Of a stretch of 64,000 bases of DNA, positions 15,176 to 59,728 are shown piece after piece. The stretch is from a bacterium (GTDB lineage: Bacteria > Electryoneota > Electryoneia > Electryoneales > Electryoneaceae). Positions within the stretch are counted from its first letter, which is position 1; each line of letters starts with the position of its first letter. Position numbers and translations under genes: made by a program. A model generated the notes under the pieces. The model was not told where the DNA came from. It did not search any database and saw only the letters and a program-made list of their open reading frames with translations. The stretch is taken from positions 5,038-69,037 of the forward strand of contig JAHLLB010000021.1 in the NCBI GenBank assembly GCA_020444425.1, given 5' to 3'.

Positions 15176-15210
15176 TTTCCTCACAGCTCAAACCTCACAC
15201 CTCATACCTC
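15176..15210. repeat. heptanucleotide tandem array (5 units, NNNNCTC; GAGGTNT on the reverse strand)
   Basis: tttcctc acagctc aaacctc acacctc atacctc, ending 4 nt from the stop codon (15215..15217) of the minus-strand gene. Confidence 0.7.
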
Positions 15211-15214
15211 CACT

Positions 15215-15688
15215 TCACCCATACACAGGCGGATCGCGGCGGGAATCTTCGGGCAGGATGCGGGTCAGTGTCAGGGTTAACGTGCCGTCGTCGGTGAGGT
15301 CGCCTTCGACGTCGTCCAGGGAGTCGTTGGCGAAATCGAGGCTGGCCAGTTCGAGCGAGCGGGCGGTCATGCCGTGCGGGCGGAAGGTTCCGGTCGCGGC
15401 GTCGGCGGGGATGTCGTCCAGGTGGCACTTGATGCTGAACTGCACCCGGTTGGCGAGCACGACCATATCGACACGGAATGTCGACTCGCCGTCCTCATTG
15501 AGCAGACCCTCGATCACCTCTTCACACACCCCGAGCACCGCGACGATGATCCGTTCCAGCTCGAACGCATCGGTACGCAGCCGGCGCAGGGTGACATCGA
15601 CCTTCTCCGCGATCATGCCAAGGAAGGACGTGTCGGCGGGGTATTCGAGCCCCCAGCGGATGGAGAAGACGTTACGGTTCTGGCCCAT
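15215..15688 (-). CDS. hypothetical protein (157 aa)
   Basis: GC3-rich, protein-like composition (MGQNRNVFSIRWGLEYPADTSFLGMIAEKV...). The overlapping plus-strand ORF 15258..15728 is Ser/Arg-rich and looks like a shadow. Confidence 0.55.
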   Translation of the reverse strand: MGQNRNVFSIRWGLEYPADTSFLGMIAEKVDVTLRRLRTDAFELERIIVAVLGVCEEVIEGLLNEDGESTFRVDMVVLANRVQFSIKCHLDDIPADAATGTFRPHGMTARSLELASLDFANDSLDDVEGDLTDDGTLTLTLTRILPEDSRRDPPVYG

Positions 15689-15692
15689 GGAT

Positions 15693-15790
15693 GACGGTAC
15701 TCGGTTGTCGGTTGACGGTTGTCGGTAATCGGTGGCCGGTAAACGGTATTTGGTTTACCGTAGCCCGTAGCTCGCAGCCCGCAGTCCACG
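15693..15790. repeat. heptanucleotide tandem array, 14 degenerate units
   Basis: gacggta ctcggtt gtcggtt gacggtt gtcggta atcggtg gccggta aacggta tttggtt taccgta gcccgta gctcgca gcccgca gtccacg, with strict 7-nt register. It is followed by cgtctgcaagca, a truncated copy of the GTCTGCTTGCAGAC hairpin module. Confidence 0.75.
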
Positions 15791-15855
15791 TCTGCAAGCA
15801 AATGTGAACCTGATCGTCGTTGCTGACAACTGATTACTGAGCACAGAGAACTGTC

Positions 15856-21431: not shown

Positions 21432-21550
21432 CTCGGCCTCACGATATACTTTGTGTACCTAGGTATATGGTAACAGAAATTAGTTGGTGAGTCAAGAGGC
21501 TCTGCCAGGATTGGCGGAATGATGCTCGTGGAGGTGGGTTGGGGGGCCTG

Positions 21551-21578
21551 TCGGTGGTCGGTGGTCGGTGGTCGGCAG
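21551..21578. repeat. heptanucleotide tandem array (TCGGTGG x3 + TCGGCAG)
   Basis: tcggtgg tcggtgg tcggtgg tcggcag, in the intergenic region upstream of padR. Confidence 0.75.
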
Positions 21579-21880
21579 GTTGGATTTCCGACTCAGGGCA
21601 GACAACCCCGATAGGCGCCGAAACACACCAGCGGTCAATCACGGGCACCAATCCATCGATCTTGCCCGTATTGGCTTTGACAACGCGGACCTGAACCCCT
21701 GAAAGGGGACATCTGGCGGCGCTCGAAAATTGTGAATCGGTGAGGTCACACGATTCTACCAGACACCGACTCTTCGACCTGTCACCGGTTTGTGCCGACA
21801 GGTGTCCCCAGAACCTGCGGTGGTTCCCTGCTACCGGAGAATCCCGACCAGCTCTAATACGTTCGAGGCAAATACAAAAT

Positions 21881-21910
21881 CGGGGACACTTGACGGAGCA
21901 AGTGTCCCCG
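21881..21910 (-). terminator. GGGGACACTT-family palindromic hairpin acting as a likely terminator of the FG-GAP gene
   Basis: CGGGGACACTTG-acggag-CAAGTGTCCCCG (12-bp stem). On the minus strand it is followed by ATTTTGTATTT, and it lies ~50 nt downstream of the stop at 21959. Confidence 0.6.
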
Positions 21911-21928
21911 ATTAATTGGTGTTTCTCA

Positions 21929-21956
21929 GGACTCGAGACTCAAGACTCGGGACTCA
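21929..21956. repeat. heptanucleotide tandem array (RGACTCR x4)
   Basis: ggactcg agactca agactcg ggactca, ending 2 nt from the stop codon 21959..21961. Confidence 0.7.
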
Positions 21957-24573: not shown

Positions 24574-24599
24574 CCGCGTCCGCAAGCGGACACGGGCAC
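24574..24599. repeat. copy (reverse orientation) of the 26-nt hairpin module GTGCCCGTGTCYGCTTGCRGACGCGG
   Basis: ccgcgtccgcaagcggacacgggcac is the reverse complement of the module found at 43233..43258 and 43839..43864, with two compensatory changes in the stem. It lies ~40 nt downstream of the lexA stop. Confidence 0.65.
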
Positions 24600-31792: not shown

Positions 31793-31968
31793 CGGGTTTA
31801 GCTCGTTTAGGTAACAACTGCAACTGTTTACATGCACTGTTCTTACGATTTTCCAATCGATATTAATTTTCATTCAATGTGAACAAACAAATTCAAAGGC
31901 AACTATGTAGTTCTAAGTCTGGTTCAACTTAATTACTCATCGATCATGGTATCGGCAGTAAATGATCG

Positions 31969-34830
31969 CTATTTTTTTGTGGGATTGCCAATTTCCTCAC
32001 CCGATAGACCAGGTTCACGTACAAGAAGTTCGCGGATGGAACTGATGTCCGGTAAATCCAGAGTTTTTCGAAATGCATCATCTATTTCATGTCGAACTGG
32101 ATCTACATCAAGTTCGGCGATGGCCAATAGTTGCTTCTTGGCAAGTACATCGTAAGCCTCGCCAAGTTCAGTTAGTATTTCCTTTGACAAATCCTTAACA
32201 TTGAGAACCTGCATCGAAGCCCATGCAGGTTTCTTCATTTGCATCCATGAGCCTCTAGTTATTGCACGTCGTCCATAGTAGGACAGCACTCCGAAGGTCG
32301 AGTTGAACCAGAGTAATAAGGCTTTTCGCTGATTAGCTGAGAGTTTGGCGTCATTGAACGCCCACCAAGTATTGCCGAGAACCTCCTTGTCAAACCCTGT
32401 CGCGATAGTACGATGTGTGTTTGTCCAGAGCCTTGAGACCAGCAGCGTTTTTCCCGCTTTCGACCAAACAGCATTAGCGTCTTTGAGCTTTCTTTTTGGA
32501 AGGGCTTTTGTTCGCGCAATCAGTGTGGCATTTGGCTCTTGAGCAATTGTCTGAACTTTTGTCGCGTCATGATTCCAGAACGCGGTATACGGTGACCACG
32601 TGCTTGCTGAATCATCCACTTCAAAAGCATCGAAAATATCTCTGACATCATAACCAAGTTCGCCAAGCTCATCGAGACGGCACAACTTAACTTTCTTCCC
32701 TGTTGAGCTGCCGGGAACGCGAATTTCATGGTTGTTGTTCAGCTGCCAGTACGCTTGCATCAAATGGCGCTGTGCAAATATGGCACCTGTCCAATTATCG
32801 CCACCTTCGGGAGCCGGAAGGCTAGCCATCTCACCAATGACCCGCGTACCGGTTCTCACGATTCTAGTTTCTCCTACCCTTTGTCCGACATTTGCGATTT
32901 CGCAAGCAATTCGGGACGCACAATCTAACGCTTCATGAATCGTGCGTGGGTTGTGCCACAAGTTCACGTAGATTGTCGTTCCAGGCTTCTCTTTCACCTG
33001 CAAACGCCGAGCAATAAACAATATCTCGGACAAATGGGTATTTTCTGAGAAGTTGGGTCGCTCATTGTCATGGCTGGTAATGACCACCTCTAAGTGAAAT
33101 TCAGTCGCAATAAGTCTTCGTATAGCACGCCAAGCTTCGCCGGTTGCTAAAGCCACTGGAAGGACAAAGGCAATGCGTCCCCCCCGTTTCGTATGAAGAT
33201 TTGCCAACGGCACAAACAGTGCCCCAAGCCCTGCGGTACCACTCACAGAGAACATTTTCGCCTGTTTAGAAAGAGCTTTTTGCAGTGCCGAACGTTCCTG
33301 AGGCAGGGAACCAAAAAGCCGGTTTCCATAACGGCTACTGGTAAATGGCGGATTCAAAACGCAAAGGTCGAGTTTCGGTACTTTCGCGTTAGTGTAGGTT
33401 GATTTTGATGCGCCTGTGCGAACCACATCCAACTGTGTATCGTCAAGTGCAAACTGAGTTCTAATCTCTTGACCTTCGAGGAAGTCGAGACTTCCAAGAC
33501 GCGGACGCCCATGGTCCAGCCCCATCGGCATGACGAACAGGTTCATGTTGCGGAAGGCCACGTCCGGGGCTAGGAGTGCTAGCGTAGAAGCGGTAAGATG
33601 AACCGCTGTAGGCAGAACATCATAGCCATGCATGACATTTTGCATAAGGGTTTGGTGAAGTATCGAGACATCTTTATCACTTAGAGAAAGATCCTGCTCA
33701 GCGCGGTCCCTGATGTGTCGATCAGTCAGTGCTTGCGCCGCAGCCATAAGAAGTGTACCAGTACCACAAGCGAGATCTGCAACTTTAAAATCAGCTAGCT
33801 CGCGTGGAGAGGCAAAATCATTTTTCCAGTCCAGTGCAAAAACAAGTTTTAGAAGCAAAGTAGCAGCTGAGACTGACGTATAATAGGTTCCAAGAAACTT
33901 TGCATCATGCAAAAGCCAATGGTATATGCGGCCCATAAGATCATGCCGCAAAGCAGCCTGCTGTCGACAAATAGCTTGTGCTTCACCTAGTAATGCCTTC
34001 ACTGCGAGCGTTGAATTCGGACTTGATGGAAGCTCGTCCAATAACCGTTCACCGAGCTGAAAGATTGGGACGTAATTGATATTCTCCCAAATCCAGTGCC
34101 AATGTTTGGATGTCGCGTCAACTACATCGGTGTTTTTTTCAATCTTTCGGAGTGTTTCGACCCGAGTGTCCGTTATAGAAAGCTGTTCCTGGAAAATGAA
34201 AGCGTTTGCAAGAACAAGTGCCGAAACTTTCGCAGCCGTATCGCGCCGATCAATTGTATTTGCTGGTTCCTCGCCTTCCGGTGGAATGATACCGAGAATA
34301 CGTGATAGACGATCACAGGCACCGGGCTGTCCATTCCAAAGTCGCGCGACTGTCTCCAACTGCGCCGATAGAGATTTAGCCACTTGCTCGACGATATCGT
34401 CTTGGGACAGCGCTTCCTGGACGCGTCTGAGCGCATCCATGAGTGAGGCTGGCGTTCCTTCGAACCACTCTTCACTTTCGTGAGATTCTGATACGATTCG
34501 ATAACGAAGTTTTGCGTTTTCAAGTGTTTCGATGATCTTGGTGGTTGGTGCAGAACGAAGTTCTAACGGATAGACAGCAGCAGCGGCTATGTGCGCAATG
34601 CCACTCGAAACGCGTTTACGCGCATCTTCGAGAACAACATCATAGGCAGAAGGATGATCGGTGAACTTTCCCTCTATGACGATACGCAAACCACGCATCT
34701 CAAATATCACATCAGGTCGATGTTTGCCGTGAACATGAATGGTCTCAGCGTCGGCAGTGACACCAAGCTTTGAAATAAGTATTGCGAGCTGAGTGTTGAC
34801 TGCTTCTTCGCGGTTTCTTTGCGCATTCAT
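31969..34830 (-). CDS. Type IIG/IIL-like restriction-modification enzyme (N-terminal PD-ExK nuclease-like domain + gamma-class N6-adenine DNA methyltransferase + C-terminal specificity region)
   Basis: 953 aa. N-terminus HGKHRPDVIFEMRGLRIVIEGKF (PD...ExK, HSDR_N-like). SAM motif I VADLACGTGTLLMAAA, motif IV LCVLNPPF, and a long C-terminal region. Lower-GC, differently biased codon usage compared with the flanking murA and dnaE. Confidence 0.7.
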   Translation of the reverse strand: MNAQRNREEAVNTQLAILISKLGVTADAETIHVHGKHRPDVIFEMRGLRIVIEGKFTDHPSAYDVVLEDARKRVSSGIAHIAAAAVYPLELRSAPTTKIIETLENAKLRYRIVSESHESEEWFEGTPASLMDALRRVQEALSQDDIVEQVAKSLSAQLETVARLWNGQPGACDRLSRILGIIPPEGEEPANTIDRRDTAAKVSALVLANAFIFQEQLSITDTRVETLRKIEKNTDVVDATSKHWHWIWENINYVPIFQLGERLLDELPSSPNSTLAVKALLGEAQAICRQQAALRHDLMGRIYHWLLHDAKFLGTYYTSVSAATLLLKLVFALDWKNDFASPRELADFKVADLACGTGTLLMAAAQALTDRHIRDRAEQDLSLSDKDVSILHQTLMQNVMHGYDVLPTAVHLTASTLALLAPDVAFRNMNLFVMPMGLDHGRPRLGSLDFLEGQEIRTQFALDDTQLDVVRTGASKSTYTNAKVPKLDLCVLNPPFTSSRYGNRLFGSLPQERSALQKALSKQAKMFSVSGTAGLGALFVPLANLHTKRGGRIAFVLPVALATGEAWRAIRRLIATEFHLEVVITSHDNERPNFSENTHLSEILFIARRLQVKEKPGTTIYVNLWHNPRTIHEALDCASRIACEIANVGQRVGETRIVRTGTRVIGEMASLPAPEGGDNWTGAIFAQRHLMQAYWQLNNNHEIRVPGSSTGKKVKLCRLDELGELGYDVRDIFDAFEVDDSASTWSPYTAFWNHDATKVQTIAQEPNATLIARTKALPKRKLKDANAVWSKAGKTLLVSRLWTNTHRTIATGFDKEVLGNTWWAFNDAKLSANQRKALLLWFNSTFGVLSYYGRRAITRGSWMQMKKPAWASMQVLNVKDLSKEILTELGEAYDVLAKKQLLAIAELDVDPVRHEIDDAFRKTLDLPDISSIRELLVREPGLSGEEIGNPTKK

Positions 34831-34859
34831 TTTGCTTGCCTTTACCTAAACAAGAGACT

Positions 34860-36122
34860 TCATCGTTCACCCACCCGATCAATGATTGCGCCGAGCGCGC
34901 GCAACTTGTCTTCCAGTTTTTCGTAACCTCGGTCGAGATGGTAGATCCGGCTGATGTGGGTTTCGCCCTCCGCCGCCAGTCCCGCGAGCACGAGACACGC
35001 CGACGCGCGCAGATCGGTCGACATCACCGGCGCGCCTTTCAGCTTCGACGGTCCCTGCACCTTGGCGACGTTTTCCTTCATCGTCACCTTCGCACCCAAC
35101 CGCATCAGTTCGGCGACGTGAGTGAAACGATCCGGATAAATGGTGTCGGTGACGAAACTGGCGCCGTTCGCCATGGACATCAGCGCGATCCACTGCGCCT
35201 GCATATCGGTCGCAAATCCGGGGTAGACGGCGGTTTCGACGTCCACCGGACGCAACTCGCCGTTGCGTTTGACCCGGATGCCATCCACGGTGACGGTCAC
35301 ATGCAGCCCCGCCTCCACCGATTTCGCGATGACCATGGTCAGGTGTTCCGGTTCCGCGCCCTTGAGGACGATCTCGCCGCCAGTCATGCCGACTGCCGCG
35401 AGGTACGTTCCCGCCTCGATACGATCCGGGATAACCGCCTGCTGCACGGGTTTCAGGTCACGTGTTCCGACAATGCGTAGCGTGCTGGTGCCGGTGCCTT
35501 CGATGGTCGCGCCCATCTGCTGCAGCATGCGCACCAGGGCGGTGACCTCCGGTTCCCGGGCGACGTTGTCGAGGACCGTCTCCTCCGGGATCGTCGCCGC
35601 CACGAGCAGCAGGTTGACCGTCGCACCGACACTGGGAAAGCTGAGCACGAAGTTGGTTCCGTGGATATTGGCCGCGTCCGCGACAACGTAGCCTTCGTCG
35701 AGGTCGATACTCACACCCATCGCCTCGAAGCCCTTCATGTGGATGTCCACCGGACGCGGACCCCACGCGCAGCCACCGGGCAACGAGACCTTGCCCTTGC
35801 GCAGCCGTCCGATTAACGCCCCGAGGGCGTAAAACGACGCGCGCATGGTCTTCACCAGCTCGTACGGCGCGGTGTCGGAGGTCAAGTTGGCGGCATCCAG
35901 CGACATCGTACCGGCGTCCCGGTCATGCTCAACTTCGAGACCGAGGTTGGCGAGCACACGGCCCATCGTGCCGACGTCCACAAGACGCGGGACGTTGCTG
36001 AGCGTCGTCTTGCCTGGTGCGAGCACGGCGGCGGCCATCAACGGTAACGCGGCGTTCTTCGCGCCCGCGACCTGGATGTTGCCGTACAGCTCGTGCCCGC
36101 CCTGGATGATCAGTTTGTCCAT
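34860..36122 (-). CDS. murA: UDP-N-acetylglucosamine 1-carboxyvinyltransferase
   Basis: MDKLIIQGGHELYGNIQVAGAKNAALPLMAA, active-site region LPGGCAWGPRPVD, 420 aa. Confidence 0.95.
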   Translation of the reverse strand: MDKLIIQGGHELYGNIQVAGAKNAALPLMAAAVLAPGKTTLSNVPRLVDVGTMGRVLANLGLEVEHDRDAGTMSLDAANLTSDTAPYELVKTMRASFYALGALIGRLRKGKVSLPGGCAWGPRPVDIHMKGFEAMGVSIDLDEGYVVADAANIHGTNFVLSFPSVGATVNLLLVAATIPEETVLDNVAREPEVTALVRMLQQMGATIEGTGTSTLRIVGTRDLKPVQQAVIPDRIEAGTYLAAVGMTGGEIVLKGAEPEHLTMVIAKSVEAGLHVTVTVDGIRVKRNGELRPVDVETAVYPGFATDMQAQWIALMSMANGASFVTDTIYPDRFTHVAELMRLGAKVTMKENVAKVQGPSKLKGAPVMSTDLRASACLVLAGLAAEGETHISRIYHLDRGYEKLEDKLRALGAIIDRVGER

Positions 36123-36150
36123 GTTTCGGCTATTGGCTATGGGCCGTTGG

Positions 36151-37821
36151 CTATAGGCCCGGGTTTACGTTGGCTGGATTGTGTTCAATCAACTCTCTCG
36201 CGGCGGCGCGGCTGCCATCGGTAACCGACTCGCCACCGAGTAGGCGCGCGATCTCGTCGATTTGTTCCTGACTGCCGACGGGCAGGTTGCGCATCGTGAC
36301 CTTCGTAGAATCTGCGCCGGTCTGTTTCTCGATCACGAAATGGTGGTCGGCGAGGCTGGCGATCTGCGGCAGATGGGTCACCAGGATCACTTGCCGGATC
36401 CGGCTCAGCTCCTTCAACCGCAGCCCGACCTGACGCGCGGTCTTGCCGGAAATGCCTGTATCGACCTCGTCAAACACCAGCACCGGCGGCAGTCCCTCCG
36501 GCGGGCTTAGCCCGCGCAACAGCAGCATCATTCGGCTAAGTTCACCGCCGGACGCCACCCGCTGCAATGCCTTCGGTTCATGGCCCGGGTTGAAGGAGAT
36601 GCGGAACTCGTAACGGTCCCACCCATCCGGACCGACGCAGTGCGCACCACTGTGGGGAAACTCGACCGTCTCCCCCTCTTCCTCTACACGATGGATCTCG
36701 AAGCGCGGTTTCTCGACACCCACCGAGCGCAGTCCTTCTTCCATCGCCGCCTGCATCTGCGGCAGGATCGACACTCGAGCCGCGGATACATTCTCGCACG
36801 CCGTTTCCCAGCGTTCGAGGTGCTTTCTGATCTCACGGTCGAGCCGGTCACGTTCGCGCTGCAGGTCCTCGCTGTCATCTTCCCGTGTGCGCAGGTCGCG
36901 CCAGGTGTCGAGCAGCGCCTGCATCGAGCCGCCGTACTTGCGGATCAGACGCAACAATTGCCCATGCCGGTCGCGTACCTGTTCCAACTGATCCGGGTCA
37001 AGATTCACATCATCGCGGCGGTTGGCAAGATCGAGGGACGCCTGGCGCAAGACGTCCAACGCTTCATTCAACGCTGTTTCCTGCGACTTCAGGGACTCGT
37101 CAATGCGCGCCAGGTCACGTACTTCCTGGATGATCGCTGCCAACTGGTCGGAGACTGGCGCGTCCCCCTGGTCCAGCGCGTCCACGGTGTTGCTCAATCC
37201 GGTGAGCAGGCTTTCCGCTCCCTCGAGCAAGCGAATTTCACGCTCGAGCTCATCCTCTTCGTCCGGTTTCGGATCGAACGAATCGATTTCGGCCAACTGA
37301 TACCGCGCCAGCTCTTCGGTTTCCTTCAGCCGTGTGATCCGGGCTGTCAGCTTCGCGCGCCTGTCCTTGAACGACTGATACGTCGCGTGCAACTCGCCCA
37401 ACTCGGTAACGTCGGCTTCCAATCCGCCGAAACGGTCGATGTGCTCGAGGTGCGTGGCAGGATCGAGCAGGGTTGCGCCGTCCCGCTGCGCGGTCAGCTC
37501 CACCCAGCGCCGTCCCTCCTCTTTCAGGGCGGCGATGGTGGTGGCGGAATCGTCGATCCGGGCCTTGGTGCGTCCGTCCGGACCGACTTCGCGGATCAGC
37601 GCACGGGTGCTGCCGTCCTGTTCGAACAACGCTGACACATTCGCCCGGTCCTCGCGCACGATGTCCGGATAGGCACGCTCGCCAAGCGTGAGCGCGATCG
37701 ATCCAATCAGGATTGACTTGCCCGCGCCGGTTTCGCCGGTGATCACATTCAGGCCGTTGGCGAATTCGAGTGCGAGTTCGTCGACGAGCGCGATATTCTT
37801 TATTTTCAACGATTTAAGCAA
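36151..37821 (-). CDS. recN: DNA repair protein RecN
   Basis: TTG start. MLKSLKIKNIALVDELALEF, Walker A GETGAGKS, long coiled-coil middle, ASGGELSRMML signature, Walker B VLVFDEVD. Confidence 0.9.
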   Translation of the reverse strand: MLKSLKIKNIALVDELALEFANGLNVITGETGAGKSILIGSIALTLGERAYPDIVREDRANVSALFEQDGSTRALIREVGPDGRTKARIDDSATTIAALKEEGRRWVELTAQRDGATLLDPATHLEHIDRFGGLEADVTELGELHATYQSFKDRRAKLTARITRLKETEELARYQLAEIDSFDPKPDEEDELEREIRLLEGAESLLTGLSNTVDALDQGDAPVSDQLAAIIQEVRDLARIDESLKSQETALNEALDVLRQASLDLANRRDDVNLDPDQLEQVRDRHGQLLRLIRKYGGSMQALLDTWRDLRTREDDSEDLQRERDRLDREIRKHLERWETACENVSAARVSILPQMQAAMEEGLRSVGVEKPRFEIHRVEEEGETVEFPHSGAHCVGPDGWDRYEFRISFNPGHEPKALQRVASGGELSRMMLLLRGLSPPEGLPPVLVFDEVDTGISGKTARQVGLRLKELSRIRQVILVTHLPQIASLADHHFVIEKQTGADSTKVTMRNLPVGSQEQIDEIARLLGGESVTDGSRAAARELIEHNPANVNPGL

Positions 37822-39869: not shown

Positions 39870-40916
39870 TCAATGGTGTCGCTTGCTTGCCGGTTTCTGT
39901 TTCAGAAACTCGCGTTCTACTCCGGCGAGGGTTTCCGCAAACTCCAGGTCGTCCCGCAGTTTGTACCGCACCTGCCGCCGCATGTGGGCCATCGCGCTAC
40001 CGCTGATGTTCAGCCTCTCCCCCAGTTCACGGATGCCACCGTTTCCAATCAGATGCCGCATGGCCAGTTCGACGAGGATTTTCCGTCCCGGGTGACGGGC
40101 GCGTGCGCGCAGGAGATCATCCGGTGGGACTTCATACGATCGGGCTACGGCCCGGACGAGTCGGTTGAAACGAACCCGGATTTCGTTGCGATTGACACCG
40201 TTCCCCTTTGCCGGCAAAGGGGAATGCGCGCCGGTGCGTCCGCGCGCGCGTTCGTAGTGTTCCTGAATGAAGTCCTTGCTGCCGAGCAGGCTCATCGCCT
40301 TGACCTGGTCGAACACGTCGGGCTGTTTGCTGACGTTCTTCGCGCCCTGCATGATGTACCAGAACGGGGCTTCGTCCGGACGTCCCGGTTGCAAATGCGC
40401 CAGCCGGCGCACGGCTTCGCGGCGGTTGAACCACGCCGGGCCCTCTTCCTGTCCACTGTAGATCGGCAGTGATGTCCAGCGTGTCTTCAGAATTTCGCCG
40501 ATCTTGCGCGCTTCGCTCTCGTTGGACCAGTGCCCGCCGATGACGGGTGCGAGGTGGATCCGTTGCAGCACATCGGCGAACAACGGACCGTCCTGCACCA
40601 GGATCGAACGGTGCCGGTCGCGGATCTTCGGGAGATCACGAAAGTTCAGCGCCTTCAGCCGGTTGAAGTATCCGGCCTGGCAGCGGTGGATAAAGCTGGA
40701 GAGAGGAAGTTGGCCGGAACGGACAAACAACAGCGCGGAATTCGGCAGCAGGGCATAGGCGAAAATGGTGACGCCGTACGCTTCGGTGGCGTCCCCGATG
40801 GACGCGAGGAACAGGCCGCGTTCTTCTTCCGATACGAACAGGTCAGTATCGGGTCGAACGCGGATCTGCAGGATGTAGAGAGCGTCTGGGATGTGGATGC
40901 GCACGGGTCGAGCCAT
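39870..40916 (-). CDS. IS200/RayT-like Y1-transposase-fold protein fused to a DnaA C-terminal-type HTH domain (HUH motif degenerate)
   Basis: ORF track gives 39870..40952; start at MARPVRIHIPDALYILQI. N-terminal domain follows the Y1 transposase layout, but the HUH position reads LLPNSALLF. C-terminus RKILVELAMRHLIGNGGIRELGERLNISGSAMAHMRRQV resembles the Bac_DnaA_C HTH. Confidence 0.6.
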   Translation of the reverse strand: MARPVRIHIPDALYILQIRVRPDTDLFVSEEERGLFLASIGDATEAYGVTIFAYALLPNSALLFVRSGQLPLSSFIHRCQAGYFNRLKALNFRDLPKIRDRHRSILVQDGPLFADVLQRIHLAPVIGGHWSNESEARKIGEILKTRWTSLPIYSGQEEGPAWFNRREAVRRLAHLQPGRPDEAPFWYIMQGAKNVSKQPDVFDQVKAMSLLGSKDFIQEHYERARGRTGAHSPLPAKGNGVNRNEIRVRFNRLVRAVARSYEVPPDDLLRARARHPGRKILVELAMRHLIGNGGIRELGERLNISGSAMAHMRRQVRYKLRDDLEFAETLAGVEREFLKQKPASKRHH

Positions 40917-41106
40917 GGCGCCCAAGGTAGAGAACAAGAAGTGCCGCGACAAGCGCGCTCGGGGGCGGGAGCTGTTGTGAAATTCTTGTTAGTTCAGTAA
41001 TTAAGCTATTGGTAAATAAAAATATGGGACTCGTTTGCGGCTTAGCTTTCCTCCCGCAGTATCGTTAGCAGATGAATACATCGCGACTTGCAGCTACAAC
41101 CCATCG

Positions 41107-42520: not shown

Positions 42521-44404
42521 TCATGGGGCCGCGAACGGTCCATACGCCGGTGCTTGCGGATGCTGCAGATCGGTCAGCCGCCATGCTTTCATCCGCACCC
42601 AACGGTTGCGGTGACGGACCGAATCCAGCGGCAACGGTTCGACTGCGGAAAACCGTGGCGCGAAGTGCTTTTCCGGGTCGATGTCGTAGCGTGCCTGGGT
42701 GATGAAGACGCCGGACCAGCGTTCGTACTGCGTCTCCGGTGCCCACCATGCGAACATGTGGGAATCGACCGGGTTGAGCAGCACGATGGTGTGTGCACCC
42801 TGATCCGCCCACGCCAGCTCGCCGGCGGTGAACCACTTGTGCGCGAAGATGAGATCGTTTTCGGTCAGTTCGCCGGACTGCTCGAGCTCATCCAACGCCG
42901 CCCTCCACCCTGCCGGGTCAAGCGTTGGGTCGGAACGTGGTTCCAGAGGAATGAACCCGGTTGCTGCCTGAATCACAACCAACAAGACCAGCAGCAGGTT
43001 CACACCGATCGCGATGGCGATGTTGCGTTGCACGCGAGTTGTCCACGCAAACCCTCCCGCCGCCAGCACGAACGCCGCAGCGTACCCCGGCATGGTCCAA
43101 TGCGGCAAGATGCCGCGAGTCAGTCCGATCAAGGTGATCCCGATGACCGGTGTCAGGAAAAATGCGACGAGCCAGCGGTCACTGGGCGAGGTGTGAGGTG
43201 TGAGGTGTGAGGTATGAGGAACAGCATTAGACGTGCCCGTGTCTGCTTGCAGACGCGGCCCCGAGACTGCTTGCTCAACGTTCGTGCCCGCAGCTTCACC
43301 ACTCGACTTCCTCAGGTCGGTCGATCCTGACGTGCGAGTACGTCGTGGCACACCGGGTTCCACAGGGGACACTTTCTCCGAAAGTGTCCCCTGTGACCGG
43401 CGTCTCCGGAACGCACCCCAGAACAGCACCACCGCCAGCCACGGTGTCAGGTACCCGATCTGCCCGCCGATCGCCTGCCCGATCAGATCGAAGCGCAGTC
43501 GCAGTTCGCCGCTGGTCCCTTTGCCGAGCTGTTCGGCGAACGAGATCCAGTGATTGTTCGCGTTCCACCAGATCGTCGGCGCGAACACCAGCACTGCGAT
43601 CACGAGTGCTAAATACAGCCGCCAGTCCAACCACCAGCGACGCAGCTGCTTGTCGTAGATCGACGCAATCACCAGCGACGCCGGCAACAACACGGCGTGG
43701 TACTTGGCGAGCAGCGCCAGTCCGGTGAAGACGCCCAGAAGGGCGAACAGCAAGGTCCGTTGGACGTAGGTCTGAGGTGTGAGGTGTGAGCTATGAGGAA
43801 CACCCTCACCCACATCACCACTTGTTCCCGTTTCCAAAGTGCCCGTGTCTGCTTGCAGACGCGGACGCTCCGCAGCTTCACCACCCGGCTTCCCTACATC
43901 TGTCGATCCCGACGTGCGAGCACGTCGGGGCACACCTGCCGGGGACACTTTCGGAGAAAGTGTCCCCGTATCGACTGTATTCCGCAACCGTTCGGCAACC
44001 ACCAGTGCCCAGACCCACGCCAGCAACAGGGCGTTGTCGGGGATCACGAACGCCCCCGCACCGACGAGGAAATAGGGGGCCGCGTGGAGCAGGAGCACCG
44101 CGAACCGGGCGGCGTTGCGGTTGTATACTCGTCCCGCGAGCAGGTAAACTCCGGGCAGGGTGAGGGTAAAGGCCAGTACCGCACCGAGACGCAGGGTCAG
44201 CGGGGTCCACAGTCCGGTCAGCCAGGTGCCAAGGCCGGCGATCAGTGCAACTGCTGGCGGATGGTCGAAATAGCCCCACGCGAGGTTGCGGGCGAAAAGA
44301 TGGTAGTAGGCTTCGTCAAAGCCGGGCCCGATCATTCCTGACAGTGCGAGGCGCACGGCGAACGATACGGCAAGCGTGACCCAGAAGACACGATCACGGA
44401 ACAT
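42521..44404 (-). CDS. ArnT/PMT-like (GT39/GT83-type) membrane glycosyltransferase carrying two in-frame repeat-element insertions
   Basis: GFDEAYYHLFARNLAWGYFDHPPAVAL signature and many TM helices. The ORF is open to 44482, so the start is uncertain (MFRDRVFWV at 44404 preferred). Two ~65-aa low-complexity inserts are encoded by the repeat copies listed below. Confidence 0.75.
   Translation of the reverse strand: MFRDRVFWVTLAVSFAVRLALSGMIGPGFDEAYYHLFARNLAWGYFDHPPAVALIAGLGTWLTGLWTPLTLRLGAVLAFTLTLPGVYLLAGRVYNRNAARFAVLLLHAAPYFLVGAGAFVIPDNALLLAWVWALVVAERLRNTVDTGTLSPKVSPAGVPRRARTSGSTDVGKPGGEAAERPRLQADTGTLETGTSGDVGEGVPHSSHLTPQTYVQRTLLFALLGVFTGLALLAKYHAVLLPASLVIASIYDKQLRRWWLDWRLYLALVIAVLVFAPTIWWNANNHWISFAEQLGKGTSGELRLRFDLIGQAIGGQIGYLTPWLAVVLFWGAFRRRRSQGTLSEKVSPVEPGVPRRTRTSGSTDLRKSSGEAAGTNVEQAVSGPRLQADTGTSNAVPHTSHLTPHTSPSDRWLVAFFLTPVIGITLIGLTRGILPHWTMPGYAAAFVLAAGGFAWTTRVQRNIAIAIGVNLLLVLLVVIQAATGFIPLEPRSDPTLDPAGWRAALDELEQSGELTENDLIFAHKWFTAGELAWADQGAHTIVLLNPVDSHMFAWWAPETQYERWSGVFITQARYDIDPEKHFAPRFSAVEPLPLDSVRHRNRWVRMKAWRLTDLQHPQAPAYGPFAAP
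43188..43391. repeat. mosaic palindromic repeat element, copy A (inside the glycosyltransferase CDS)
   Basis: Modules in order: (GAGGTRT)x5 heptamers; GTGCCCGTGTCTGCTTGCAGACGCGG hairpin; CGCAGCTTCACCAC; GTCGATCCTGACGTGCGAGTACGTCG hairpin; GGGGACACTTTC-TCC-GAAAGTGTCCCC hairpin. Same order as copy B. Confidence 0.8.
43774..43967. repeat. mosaic palindromic repeat element, copy B (inside the glycosyltransferase CDS)
   Basis: Same module order as copy A with different internal spacers. The terminal hairpin is GGGGACACTTTC-GGA-GAAAGTGTCCCC, so its loop is the reverse complement of the loop in copy A. Confidence 0.8.
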
Positions 44405-44432
44405 GGTGGCGAAGGTGACAGATTCCGAAAGC

Positions 44433-44990
44433 ATGGCGAAAGGTACAGCATCCAGCGGCGGGCCGGAAGGCGGCAGGTTCAAACAGGGCCCGCAACCGGG
44501 GTCGCTGACCCGTGTGCTGCTGGTCGACGATAACGACCGTTACGCCAAGTCTTTAACCGAGGATCTGCACCGTCGCGGGGTCGAGGACATCGTGCGTGCG
44601 GTGAACGCGAAGGAAGGCGTGGAACTGTTGCGTGCCCGTGGGGACGAGTTCGACGGCGTCGTCTCCGACATCTCGATGGAGCATCAGATCAGCGGGTTGC
44701 GTGTGCTGCGGGTCGCGCGTGCCCTCGACAAACAGCGGCGGGCGACAGTGATTGCCAGGACGGATGATCCGCGCCAGCAAAGCTTGCGCGGGCATCAAGC
44801 CCAGGACGAATCCACAACGCTTCGACCCCTGATGGTCGCGTGCGCCACCACCGGCCTCGACACACCGGCCGGCTATCAGTTCAACAAGTTCCTGCTCGGC
44901 ACGTTGTACCGTTGCGACTTCCTGATCCCGAAACGCCCGATCAAACGCGACGGGAAGGTGTTCTGGATTCGAGGGGCAAAGGTGTGGTAG
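44433..44990 (+). CDS. receiver-domain-like protein (atypical response regulator)
   Basis: ORF track gives 44376..44990; start uncertain (MAKGTASS at 44433 avoids overlap with the divergent gene). RVLLVDDNDRY...DGVVSDISME resembles a CheY-like acidic pocket and phospho-acceptor. The C-terminal part is unfamiliar. Confidence 0.45.
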   Translation: MAKGTASSGGPEGGRFKQGPQPGSLTRVLLVDDNDRYAKSLTEDLHRRGVEDIVRAVNAKEGVELLRARGDEFDGVVSDISMEHQISGLRVLRVARALDKQRRATVIARTDDPRQQSLRGHQAQDESTTLRPLMVACATTGLDTPAGYQFNKFLLGTLYRCDFLIPKRPIKRDGKVFWIRGAKVW

Positions 44991-46582: not shown

Positions 46583-46629
46583 CCGTACTACACCAGCCCG
46601 CAGTCCGTAGCCCGCGGCCAGCAGCCCGC
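46583..46629. repeat. heptanucleotide tandem array (~6.5 units, NCCGYAG)
   Basis: ccgtact acaccag cccgcag tccgtag cccgcgg ccagcag cccgc, abutting the stop codon at 46630..46632. Confidence 0.7.
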
Positions 46630-58741: not shown

Positions 58742-58762
58742 TGACTCACCACTCACAACTCA
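58742..58762. repeat. heptanucleotide tandem array (3 units, NNACTCA)
   Basis: tgactca ccactca caactca, ending 10 nt from the sufC stop codon (58773..58775). Confidence 0.55.
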
Positions 58763-58772
58763 TCACCTGAAA

Positions 58773-59586: not shown

Positions 59587-59728
59587 GGGGACACTTACTC
59601 CGTTAAGTGTCCTTGGATATTTCTACGATCACTCCGACGCGGACACAGATTCTGACGGGGACACTTACTCCGTTAAGTGTCCCCGGATGATCCTATGATT
59701 GGGGACACTTTGGGGACAAAGTGTCCCC
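59587..59728. repeat. cluster of three GGGGACACTT-family palindromic hairpins (REP-like)
   Basis: GGGGACACTTA-ctccg-TTAAGTGTCC(tt) at 59587..59612; GGGGACACTTA-ctccg-TTAAGTGTCCCC at 59657..59684; GGGGACACTTTG-gggac-AAAGTGTCCCC at 59701..59728. They lie between the Rrf2 regulator stop and the sufC start. Confidence 0.8.

What the first reader, a model, noticed from the sequence alone, without database searches (positions are those of the whole stretch)
42521..44404. Two ~200-nt mosaic palindromic repeat elements inserted in-frame in a membrane glycosyltransferase gene
The ArnT/PMT-like ORF (DEAYY...DHPP signature) stays open across two copies of the same element (43188..43391 and 43774..43967). 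Each copy has the same module order: a GAGGTRT heptamer array, a GTCTGC-TT-GCAGAC hairpin module, CGCAGCTTCACCAC, a CGACGTG...CACGTCG hairpin and a GGGGACACTTTC-NNN-GAAAGTGTCCCC hairpin. Both copies are read in the same element frame. They give related ~65-aa low-complexity inserts (GTLS.KVSP...GVPRR.RTSGSTD...GEAA...PRLQADTGT...VPH.SHLTP.T) that fall between hydrophobic segments, that is, in loops. Without them the protein would be the usual ~510-520 aa. Both copies are also open on the opposite strand (the plus-strand MPVSACRRG... ORFs). This is the behaviour known for Rickettsia palindromic elements that colonise coding sequences. The terminal hairpin loops are reverse complements (TCC versus GGA), as expected if the palindrome flips. 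Pieces of the same modules occur in intergenic DNA at 15176..15210, 15785..15800, 21881..21910, 24574..24599 and 59587..59728.
Basis: seen in the sequence. Interest (0 to 1): 0.7.

Follow-up and report, generated by a model that had tools for sequence, protein, structure and literature searches.

The report
Hairpin-repeat clusters inside a glycosyltransferase gene
Two related ~200-base clusters of small hairpin repeats plus 7-base tandem repeats sit in-frame in two loops of an ArnT-like membrane glycosyltransferase gene of an uncultured bacterium; the insertions are real and lineage-specific, but this kind of event is already known from Rickettsia palindromic elements and intragenic REP clusters.

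Summary
The GT39/ArnT-like gene (42521..44434, minus strand, 637 aa) reads through two paralogous repeat clusters with the same module order, in the same frame. That frame is the only one of six that is open through both.

Of 30 orthologues, 27 have short, length-conserved loops at both sites. The three closest relatives carry nothing, or different hairpin or heptamer inserts, at the same two loops.

The host gene is under strong purifying selection (dN/dS 0.076). The insert peptides evolve neutrally (pN/pS about 0.9) and are predicted to be disordered. They probably lie in cytoplasmic loops.

The interpretation needs correcting. No further copy of the ~200-nt "element" was found anywhere. What is dispersed are its 20-30-nt hairpin modules (M1, M2, M3) and heptamer arrays. 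These are REP-like repeats specific to this lineage. They normally lie downstream of genes (M3: 20 between convergent genes, 12 tandem, 0 divergent) or upstream of start codons.

The two inserts are best read as paralogous clusters of REP-like units, not as a defined mobile element.

The neighbouring response-regulator-like gene carries a third in-frame M1-type insert.

Verdict: a new member of a known kind, of moderate interest.

The parts
42521..44434 (-). Host gene: GT-C fold, GT39/ArnT-like membrane glycosyltransferase, 637 aa including both inserts
   Evidence: ORF. PMT_2 scores 59.3 bits. AlphaFold model pTM 0.80; best Foldseek match is ArnT 5F15, E 6.6e-8. Synteny RR-GT-NadA is conserved in L001-L003. 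dN/dS against L001 is 0.076.
43187..43399 (-). Insert at loop site 2 (copy A). About 72 extra residues between the flanking residues ...FRRRR and DRW...
   Evidence: Absent from 27 of 30 orthologues. pLDDT below 50 for residues 337-344 and 355-405 of the 627-aa model. Only frame -1 is open.
43188..43219 (-). Heptamer array A: (ACACCTC) x4.6 on the coding strand, encoding PHTSHLTPHTS
   Evidence: TRF, period 7, 96% matches. The empty site in L002 already has CCTCATACCTCACA at this position.
43233..43258 (.). M1 hairpin module, copy A (GTGCCCGTGTCTGC-TT-GCAGACGCGG)
   Evidence: 26 of 26 nt identical to copy B. 26-31-nt blocks that are 97-100% identical occur in intergenic DNA of the congener (L044, L065). 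Compensatory stem variants are seen.
43288..43354 (.). D1 segment, copy A. Unique to the two copies; includes a decayed M2 hairpin at about 43327-43346
   Evidence: 85% identical to 43870-43936. Not found anywhere else.
43361..43395 (.). M3 hairpin, copy A: 16-bp perfect stem, loop TCC on the + strand
   Evidence: The M3 family has at least 26 copies in the sampled part of congener genome CAXXKJ01.
43769..43978 (-). Insert at loop site 1 (copy B). About 62 extra residues between the flanking residues ...ERLRN and QRT...
   Evidence: Absent from 28 of 30 orthologues; P0003 has a different insert at the same place. pLDDT below 50 for residues 161-200. Only one frame is open.
43768..43798 (-). 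Heptamer array B. The degenerate inverted heptamers at 43803-43821 pair with it in the predicted fold
   Evidence: TRF; fold.
43839..43864 (.). M1 hairpin module, copy B
43870..43936 (.). D1 segment, copy B, including the intact M2 hairpin CCCGACGTG-CGAG-CACGTCGGG (43908-43929)
   Evidence: The variant CCCGACTTG..CAAGTCGGG, with compensatory changes, occurs in L002, L003 and CAZKGR01.
43940..43968 (.). M3 hairpin, copy B: 13-bp stem, loop GGA. Exact reverse complement of the copy A hairpin
   Evidence: Pair I1, 100% complementary over 27 nt.
44745..44820 (+). Third in-frame insert, in the neighbouring response-regulator-like gene (44433..44990). About 24 extra aa, containing an M1-family hairpin at 44769-44791
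   Evidence: Protein and DNA alignments with L001-L003. Hairpin. Its flank GATGATCCGCG is identical to that of the M1 copy in the L003 GT gene.
21878..21913 (.). Intergenic M3 hairpin, followed by a heptamer array at 21925-21956
59587..59728 (.). Three M3-family hairpins in tandem between convergent genes
24574..24597 (.). M1 variant with a compensatory stem (GTCCGC..GCGGAC), at a gene edge
15179..15210 (.). Intergenic heptamer array of the same unit type (CCTCACA)

Best explanation
Each insert is a cluster of small REP-like palindromic units (M3, M2, M1) joined to a heptanucleotide array.

This lineage, an uncultured bacterium probably near Calditrichota, carries the same kind of cassette all over its intergenic DNA. 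There the hairpins lie downstream of genes and the heptamer arrays lie upstream of start codons.

The cassettes landed in two short, probably cytoplasmic, loops of a GT-C glycosyltransferase. They survived because they are in the one orientation and frame without stop codons, and because the loops tolerate a disordered spacer of 62-72 aa.

The two clusters are paralogues. One composite was most likely copied to the second loop, by ectopic conversion or by movement as a block, after the split from the congener. Alternatively both came from an unseen master copy.

Shown: the insertions are lineage-specific; the modules are dispersed, structured repeat families; the host gene is constrained; the insert peptide is not.

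Inferred: the route of insertion or copying; the cytoplasmic placement; that the full-length protein is made.
For: Lineage-specific insertion at shared sites.
- Orthologue alignments place the extra sequence in the window lineage.
- At the same two loops, P0002/L001 carries two M4 hairpins. P0003/L003 carries M2b, M1 and other hairpins at site 1 and a (CTCACAG)4 array at site 2. L002 is empty apart from a heptamer pair.

The modules are independent repeat families.
- M1 and M3 blocks of 26-31 nt that are 97-100% identical occur at many intergenic sites of the congener, even though synonymous divergence between the two genomes is 0.49.
- The stems of M1, M2 and M3 show compensatory variants.
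- By flanking gene orientation, M3 copies split 20 convergent, 12 tandem and 0 divergent.
- Hairpin-plus-heptamer-array architecture recurs in intergenic DNA: 23 of 56 arrays lie within 80 nt of a module.

Constraint on the host, none on the insert.
- dN/dS is 0.076 overall and 0.059-0.075 in each of the three gene segments.
- Between inserts A and B, pN is 0.21 and pS is 0.235.
- Only 9.6% and 5.9% of shuffled inserts stay open in frame.
- Only one of six frames is open through each copy.
- The inserts have pLDDT below 50 while the core is above 90. The fold matches ArnT.
- No terminator-like site is created in the gene.

Timing. Divergence between A and B (about 0.2) is below the window-L001 dS (0.49). 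This fits a duplication after the split.

A third case. An in-frame M1-type insert lies in the adjacent gene.

Precedent. Intragenic REP clusters that encode 43-82 aa, and double insertions in a single ORF, are described in PMC3733652.
Against: - Only 64 kb of this organism's genome is available. A genome-wide family of the full composite cannot be excluded.
- The congener loci were picked because they contain M3, which is an ascertainment bias. My module patterns are also conservative; they missed the M1 variant at 44769.
- No mobilising enzyme was found. A phmmer search with E. coli RayT against the sampled loci gave nothing.
- Whether hairpins target heptamer arrays, or simply share intergenic space with them, is unresolved.
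- Cytoplasmic placement rests on counting helices and on the positive-inside rule, not on a topology predictor.
- Expression of the full-length protein is not shown.
Confidence: 0.7

Rival explanations
1. A single ~200-nt non-autonomous mobile element (RPE- or MITE-like) exists in many copies in this genome and transposed twice into the gene.
For: - The two copies have the same module order.
- They share an otherwise unique 67-nt D1 segment.
- The rest of the organism's own genome could not be searched.
Against: - No other full copy in the 64-kb window or in about 430 kb from three related genomes.
- The D1 pattern scan of metagenome contigs gave only chance hits.
- A profile of the insert peptide found no true match in 1.84 billion protein representatives.
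- There are no terminal inverted repeats or target-site duplication at junctions compared with the empty sites.
- The modules occur separately elsewhere.
Confidence: 0.15
2. The two clusters were built independently, module by module, at each loop (convergent accretion).
For: - The modules do occur singly and turn over fast. L001 and L003 carry different sets at the same sites.
- The M3 loop is flipped between the two copies.
Against: - The D1 segment is shared and found nowhere else.
- The module order is identical.
- The peptides are 68% identical over the full length.
Confidence: 0.05
3. The inserts are selected functional additions, for example regulatory disordered cytoplasmic regions rich in Ser, Thr and Arg, rather than tolerated passengers.
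For: - The frame is kept open in both.
- Both probably lie in cytoplasmic loops.
- The same loops are hit repeatedly in relatives.
Against: - pN/pS between the two copies is about 0.9.
- pLDDT is below 50.
- 27 of 30 orthologues lack any insert.
- Relatives carry unrelated peptides at the same sites.
Confidence: 0.05
4. The inserts are an assembly artefact, or the gene is a decaying pseudogene.
For: - The window comes from a metagenome-type contig.
- Repeats are a classic source of misjoins.
Against: - Both inserts preserve the frame. Shuffled inserts of the same length stay open in 9.6% and 5.9% of trials, about 0.6% jointly; the multiple-of-3 lengths make chance preservation rarer still (my arithmetic).
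- dN/dS is 0.06-0.08 in all three gene segments. The window lineage has 9 lineage-specific amino-acid changes and L001 has 5.
- The congener's 4.5-Mb contig carries an analogous in-frame insert at site 2.
Confidence: 0.03

Closest known systems
Rickettsia palindromic elements (RPE), as summarised in PMC3733652
   Same: - Palindromic repeats inserted in-frame in genes that stay functional.
- They add loop-like peptide segments.
- Copies also occur in intergenic DNA.
- One ORF can be hit twice.
   Different: - The host lineage is unrelated (uncultured, probably FCB group; inferred).
- The unit here is a cluster of three separate short hairpins plus a 7-nt array, not a single element folding as one long hairpin.
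- The whole cluster is not shown to be a repeated family.
- In the sampled DNA only two adjacent genes are hit, not many genes.
REP elements, including intragenic REP clusters (GTAG- and CGTC-tagged; Di Nocera et al. 2013, PMC3733652)
   Same: - Palindromes of 20-40 nt with compensatory stem variation, in many copies.
- Mostly found between convergent and tandem genes.
- Occur as singles, dimers and clusters.
- Intragenic clusters encoding 43-82 aa, and different REPs at the same site of orthologous genes, are described.
   Different: - The modules have no GTAG or CGTC tag, no AT-first stem and no CCA tail architecture (sequence compared).
- No flanking RAYT gene was found.
- The start of M3, GGGGACAC, fits the GGGGWSAS motif reported for the inverted repeats that flank TIRYT genes. 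This is only a lead.
Heptanucleotide tandem arrays: TAACTGA repeats of Beggiatoaceae, Cyanobacteria and Bacteroidetes (PMC4679880) and the long simple sequence repeats reviewed there
   Same: - 7-nt tandem units, mostly intergenic and just upstream of start codons.
- One orientation is barred from coding DNA because it carries stop codons.
   Different: - Many different unit sequences occur in one genome.
- The arrays are coupled to hairpin repeats.
- Here two arrays lie deep inside a coding sequence.
Bacterial MITEs that insert in frame, such as ERIC/YPAL and Nezha (named in PMC3733652), and the small dispersed repeats nested in heptamer repeats of Nostoc (recalled from memory, not checked here)
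   Same: - Small non-coding repeats that can add peptide segments.
- Repeats nest within other repeats.
   Different: - No terminal inverted repeats or target-site duplication are present.
- No related transposase was found.

Membership tests
Rickettsia palindromic elements (RPE) | In-frame insertion in ORFs that remain intact and constrained | tested here: met
   The frame is open through both inserts. dN/dS is 0.076. Orthologues lack the inserts.
Rickettsia palindromic elements (RPE) | The whole element is a dispersed repeat family with many genomic copies | tested here: inconclusive
   No further full copy in the window, in 430 kb of congener DNA, in the metagenome scan or in the protein representatives. 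The organism's own genome beyond 64 kb is not available.
Rickettsia palindromic elements (RPE) | The element folds as one long palindrome or hairpin over its length | tested here: not met
   RNA folds show three separate local hairpins plus an unstructured heptamer tract.
Rickettsia palindromic elements (RPE) | Sequence similarity to the RPE-1 to RPE-8 consensus sequences | not tested
   No RPE sequences were at hand. The Rfam gathering-threshold scan of the window found only one tRNA.
REP elements (GTAG type, mobilised by RAYT) | Short (20-40 nt) imperfect palindromes in many copies with compensatory stem variation | tested here: met
   M3 has at least 26 copies in CAXXKJ01 and 14 in CAZKGR01, from a truncated scan. 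M1 and M2 have compensatory stem variants.
REP elements (GTAG type, mobilised by RAYT) | Located mainly between convergent and tandem genes, downstream of coding regions | tested here: met
   M3: 20 convergent, 12 tandem, 0 divergent. M1 lies 5-13 nt after stop codons in L044 and L087.
REP elements (GTAG type, mobilised by RAYT) | Conserved GTAG tetranucleotide at one end | tested here: not met
   Module sequences begin CGGGGACAC (M3), GTGCCCGTG (M1) and CCCGACGTG (M2). None has GTAG.
REP elements (GTAG type, mobilised by RAYT) | A cognate RAYT gene flanked by the repeats | tested here: inconclusive
   A phmmer search with E. coli RayT against 1741 ORFs of the related loci gave no hit, but only about 5% of the congener genome was sampled. 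The window does encode a Y1_Tnp-like + DnaA_C protein, but it lacks the HUH motif and the catalytic Tyr.
CGTC-tagged REPs (PMC3733652) | Terminal CGTC, a stem of 8-9 bp starting with A-T pairs, a loop of 4-5 nt and a CCA tail | tested here: not met
   Compared by eye with the description. CGTC occurs only inside the stems of M1 and M2, the stems are GC-first, and there is no CCA tail.
MITE | Terminal inverted repeats and a target-site duplication | tested here: not met
   One end is a heptamer array and the other is a hairpin. No duplication is seen at the junctions when compared with the empty sites in L001 and L002.
GT-C fold glycosyltransferase, GT39/ArnT-like (host gene) | PMT_2 domain, an ArnT-like multi-helix fold with a C-terminal soluble domain, and a conserved acidic motif in the first loop | tested here: met
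   PMT_2 scores 59.3 bits against a cutoff of 26.1. Foldseek to 5F15/5EZM gives E 6.6e-8 and TM 0.54-0.61. G-P-G-F-D-E-x-Y-Y is nearly invariant in 31 sequences.

The most novel reading that the evidence does not exclude
The cassettes may not be passive passengers. This reading has three parts.
- Hairpin modules are inserted specifically at the edge of heptamer 'seed' arrays. Site 2 has such a seed in every member of the clade, and window and L001 carry different hairpins at exactly that edge.
- The 7-nt arrays now inside the coding sequence act as slipped-strand frameshift switches. They would make a surface-glycan-modifying enzyme phase-variable.
- The conserved, catalytically dead Y1-transposase/DnaA_C protein encoded 1.6 kb away is the factor that binds the hairpins.
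Probability: 0.07. Interest if true: 0.65.

Novelty: new member of a known kind. Interest (0 to 1): 0.35.

Why it matters
This is a clean, comparative example of selfish hairpin repeats adding 60-70-residue segments to an essential-looking membrane enzyme, outside Rickettsia and the proteobacterial REP hosts.

Four related genomes show the same two loops empty, seeded with heptamers, or filled with different module sets. That gives a natural series for asking how such repeats enter coding DNA and how proteins tolerate them.

It also flags a practical issue. This lineage's genomes are full of hairpin and heptamer repeats, which can inflate or distort gene calls.

It does not reveal a new kind of system.

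Tried and rejected
- Word-index search with the 79-aa insert peptide: nothing scored, uninformative.
- Exhaustive HMMER profile of both insert peptides: two hits, both unrelated repetitive proteins.
- Pattern scan for D1 in metagenome contigs: 19 hits, all matching only the specified bases, so chance.
- Viral contigs: M1 gave 0 hits and M3 gave 1. No link to phages.
- Look-up of the window's own protein, to reach the rest of the contig: not on record.
- RayT homologue search. None in the related loci. The one hit, in an unrelated alphaproteobacterial locus, is 3.3 kb from the palindrome.
- Hairpin at 40199-40226 inside the 360-aa gene: not an insertion, because the length is conserved in orthologues.
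- Candidate intragenic M1 and M3 copies in L087, L077, L027 and L038: these lie at over-extended ORF starts or in shadow ORFs, so are probably intergenic.
- L028 (N-terminal region) and L069 (C-terminal tail): left as ambiguous terminal cases.
- Adjacency of hairpins and arrays as proof of targeting: rejected as proof, because both are confined to the small intergenic fraction.
- One literature search on 'heptameric' returned only irrelevant papers.
Full report
OBSERVATION

The region holds one long minus-strand ORF, 42521..44482. The likely start is the ATG at 44434, giving 637 aa. This matches the database protein P0001, and its N-terminus MLSESVTFAT matches the closest orthologue.

The protein is a PMT_2/GT39 protein (59.3 bits, cutoff 26.1). 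An AlphaFold model built on 31 homologues has pTM 0.80 and pLDDT above 90 over 295 residues. Its best structural match is ArnT (5F15, E 6.6e-8).

Two segments, about 43188-43395 and 43768-43968, align at about 80% identity. They share, in the same order:
- a GAGGTGT heptamer array;
- a 26-nt block that is identical in both (M1, hairpin GTCTGC-TT-GCAGAC);
- a 67-nt segment that is 85% identical (D1, containing the CGACGTG..CACGTCG hairpin M2);
- a terminal hairpin GGGGACACTTTC-NNN-GAAAGTGTCCCC (M3).

The two M3 copies are exact reverse complements, so only the 3-nt loop is flipped. Pattern counts are far above shuffled expectation.

One correction is needed. The inserts are not open on the opposite strand as a whole. 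The plus-strand heptamers give TGA in all three frames. Exactly one of six frames is open through each copy, and it is the same element frame as the gene's.

ARE THEY INSERTIONS?

Yes. The three closest orthologues lie in conserved synteny, with a response-regulator-like gene, the GT gene and NadA in the same order. In an alignment of 31 proteins both loops are short and conserved in length: RLRExxIxRT at site 1 and RRRxxxxDRW at site 2. Only the window, P0002 and P0003 depart from this.

The relatives are informative:
- L002 is empty at both sites but has the heptamer pair CCTCATACCTCACA at site 2.
- L001 is the congener, at about 87-92% nucleotide identity. At exactly that point it has two copies of a different hairpin, M4 (CCACGGAC-NNNN-GTCCGTGG), again with flipped loops (TAAA and TTTA).
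- L003 has a (CTCACAG)4 array at site 2. At site 1 it has a different cluster containing M2 and M1 variants with compensatory stem changes. It also has a 15-nt insertion that creates an M4 palindrome at a third site.

So these loops are recurrent landing or tolerance sites, and their content turns over quickly.

IS THE GENE ALIVE?

Between window and L001, dN/dS is 0.076 (dS 0.49). It is 0.059, 0.075 and 0.059 for the parts before, between and after the inserts. There is no excess of amino-acid changes on the window branch: 9 against 5.

Shuffled inserts stay open in frame only 9.6% and 5.9% of the time. Keeping both open, with lengths that are multiples of three, therefore points to selection on the reading frame.

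The insert peptides themselves evolve neutrally (pN 0.21, pS 0.235 between copies). They are modelled as low-confidence coil between well-modelled helices. No terminator-like site is created.

I counted helices from the periplasmic C-terminal domain and applied the positive-inside rule to the flanks (ERLRN/QRT and FRRRR/DRW). On that basis both loops are probably cytoplasmic, away from the periplasm-facing DEAYY catalytic loop. This placement is inferred, not computed.

WHAT IS THE 'ELEMENT'?

A scan of one genome per species for the M3 palindrome found it concentrated in three related MAGs. The main one is CAXXKJ01, the closed congener.

In about 430 kb from these genomes, blastn with both copies finds only the separate modules. 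M1 and M3 blocks of 26-31 nt are 97-100% identical, and M2-like hairpins and heptamer arrays also appear. No second composite and no D1 turn up.

D1 is also absent from the metagenome contigs; the matches there are chance only. A profile of the insert peptides finds nothing real among 1.84 billion protein representatives.

The modules behave like REP elements:
- Conserved outer sequence with compensatory inner-stem variants. M1 has GTCTGC/GCAGAC, GTTTGC/GCAAAC, GTCAGC/GCTGAC and GTCCGC/GCGGAC. M2 has CGACGTG/CACGTCG and CGACTTG/CAAGTCG.
- Singles, dimers and tandem clusters occur.
- Location is downstream of genes. M3 splits 20 convergent, 12 tandem and 0 divergent. M1 lies a few bases after stop codons.

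Heptamer arrays with many different units are everywhere (56 in 433 kb). They are often next to the hairpins. In the window they sit 1-26 codons upstream of long ORFs.

In gene orientation, the GT inserts have the layout of an ordinary intergenic cassette of this lineage: hairpins followed by a heptamer array. Compare L044, L060, L041 and L006.

The copies have no terminal inverted repeats and no target-site duplication. They fold as separate hairpins.

HOW DID TWO COPIES ARISE?

The shared unique D1 and the identical module order argue for common descent of A and B, not independent accretion. Their divergence (about 0.2) is below the window-L001 dS (0.49), and L001 lacks the composite. The duplication therefore probably post-dates that split.

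The route is inferred. It could be ectopic conversion between loops, movement as a block, or two insertions from an unseen master copy.

The higher identity of M1 and M3 than of D1 fits either constraint on the hairpins or homogenisation against other genomic copies.

Loop flipping occurs in two independent hairpin pairs. This fits inversion within a perfect palindrome, or insertion in either orientation.

HOW GENERAL IS CODING-SEQUENCE COLONISATION HERE?

It is limited in the data at hand. Across about 19 kb of collinear alignment between window and L001, covering roughly 17 genes, there are only four differences:
- the two GT inserts;
- an insert in the adjacent response-regulator-like gene;
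- a two-unit (14-nt) change in an intergenic heptamer array.

The third insert (about 44745-44820) encodes about 24 extra residues. It contains an M1-family hairpin with the same GATGATCCGCG flank as the M1 copy in L003.

Other apparent intragenic copies in the congener lie at ORF ends, or in over-extended or shadow ORFs. So this divergent gene pair is a local hot spot, rather than one case among many.

COMPARISON WITH KNOWN SYSTEMS

Di Nocera et al. 2013 (PMC3733652) describe the following:
- REPs inside genes in several species;
- clusters encoding 43-82 aa in Thauera and R. conorii;
- double insertions in one ORF;
- different REPs at the same site of orthologous recB genes.

Functionally this finding is the same phenomenon, and the analogy with RPEs holds.

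Membership is another matter. The modules lack the GTAG or CGTC tag architecture. No RAYT flanked by them was found. The composite is not a single long palindrome.

The start of M3 (GGGGACAC) fits the GGGGWSAS motif of the repeats that flank TIRYT genes. This is a lead only.

Heptamer arrays upstream of start codons are known from Beggiatoaceae, Cyanobacteria and Bacteroidetes (PMC4679880).

A SIDE FINDING

The gene at 39870..40952 is syntenic in all four genomes. It encodes a divergent Y1_Tnp (IS200/RAYT-like) plus DnaA_C protein. The evidence is:
- NCBIfam REP_Tyr_transpos, E 0.061;
- DnaA domain IV, E 0.42;
- remote homologues carrying PF01797 and PF08299.

Its HUH motif and catalytic tyrosine are both replaced: NHYHL to NSALL, and RYIHLNPV to QRIHLAPV. 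It cannot be the nuclease that moves the hairpins. It could still bind them, but that is speculation.

VERDICT

The feature is a pair of paralogous clusters of REP-like hairpins plus heptamer arrays, tolerated in-frame in two loops of a constrained ArnT-like gene, with a third small insert next door.

It is a new member of a known kind, in a poorly known lineage. The best named relatives of its proteins are Calditrichota and Candidatus Electryonea MAGs. Interest is moderate.

Noticed in passing
window 39870-40952 (-): A 360-aa protein, syntenic in all four related genomes. It is a divergent IS200/RAYT-like Y1 transposase domain fused to a DnaA C-terminal-like domain. Both the HUH motif and the catalytic tyrosine are replaced, so it looks like a domesticated, catalytically dead transposase. 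It is conserved at 42-78% identity in MAGs labelled Calditrichota or Candidatus Electryonea and in others labelled only 'bacterium'.
   Followed up: partly
window 44433-44990 (+), insert about 44745-44820: The response-regulator-like gene divergent from the GT gene carries its own lineage-specific in-frame insert of about 24 aa, containing an M1-family hairpin (44769-44791). It also has a 9-aa N-terminal extra segment relative to L002 and L003.
   Followed up: partly
window 15179-15218, 15692-15789, 21548-21578, 21925-21956, 36128-36159, 46594-46629, 58744-58766: Heptanucleotide tandem arrays with many different unit sequences. Most lie 1-26 codons upstream of long ORFs. The array at 46594-46629 differs from the congener by exactly two units (14 nt).
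   Followed up: partly
L003 2921-2940 (GT orthologue, about codons 43-50): A 15-nt in-frame insertion creates a perfect M4 palindrome (CCACGGAC-TGAC-GTCCGTGG). Its left arm overlaps native sequence (CGGACTG). This suggests insertion at a microhomology or a templated inverted duplication.
   Followed up: no
L044 100-400; L096 2143-2266: In the congener, a tandem repeat of a 69-nt unit that contains M1. Separately, a 17-unit (CTTTCGA) array lies directly beside an M3 hairpin.
   Followed up: no
L028 6287-6311; L069 3036-3060: M3 hairpins read in frame near the N-terminus of a 1201-aa ORF (GTLSEKVSP, the same frame as in the GT gene) and in the C-terminal tail of a 390-aa ORF (GDTFSESVP). It is unclear whether these parts are truly translated.
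   Followed up: partly
L004-L102 (genome-contig scan): The palindrome GGGGACACTT..AAGTGTCCCC also occurs in several copies in unrelated MAGs (Ruminococcus, Lachnospiraceae, Burkholderiaceae, Desulfuromonadales, Woeseiaceae). By my estimate this is far more than chance would give for 20 fixed bases. Its start fits the GGGGWSAS motif reported for TIRYT-flanking repeats.
   Followed up: no
window 31800-34870: About 2.7 kb is present in the window but not in the congener L001, between the DnaE and EPSP-synthase genes. It has low GC (0.48) and a 953-aa ORF (31969..34830, minus strand). Other low-GC stretches lie at 12-16 kb and 38-40 kb. These may be acquired islands.
   Followed up: no
window 44432-44435: The ATG of the GT gene (minus strand, 44434-44432) and an ATG in the frame of the divergent response-regulator-like gene (plus strand, 44433-44435) overlap in the palindrome CATG. 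L002's called genes overlap by 2 nt in the same way; L001's RR gene is called with a later start.
   Followed up: no
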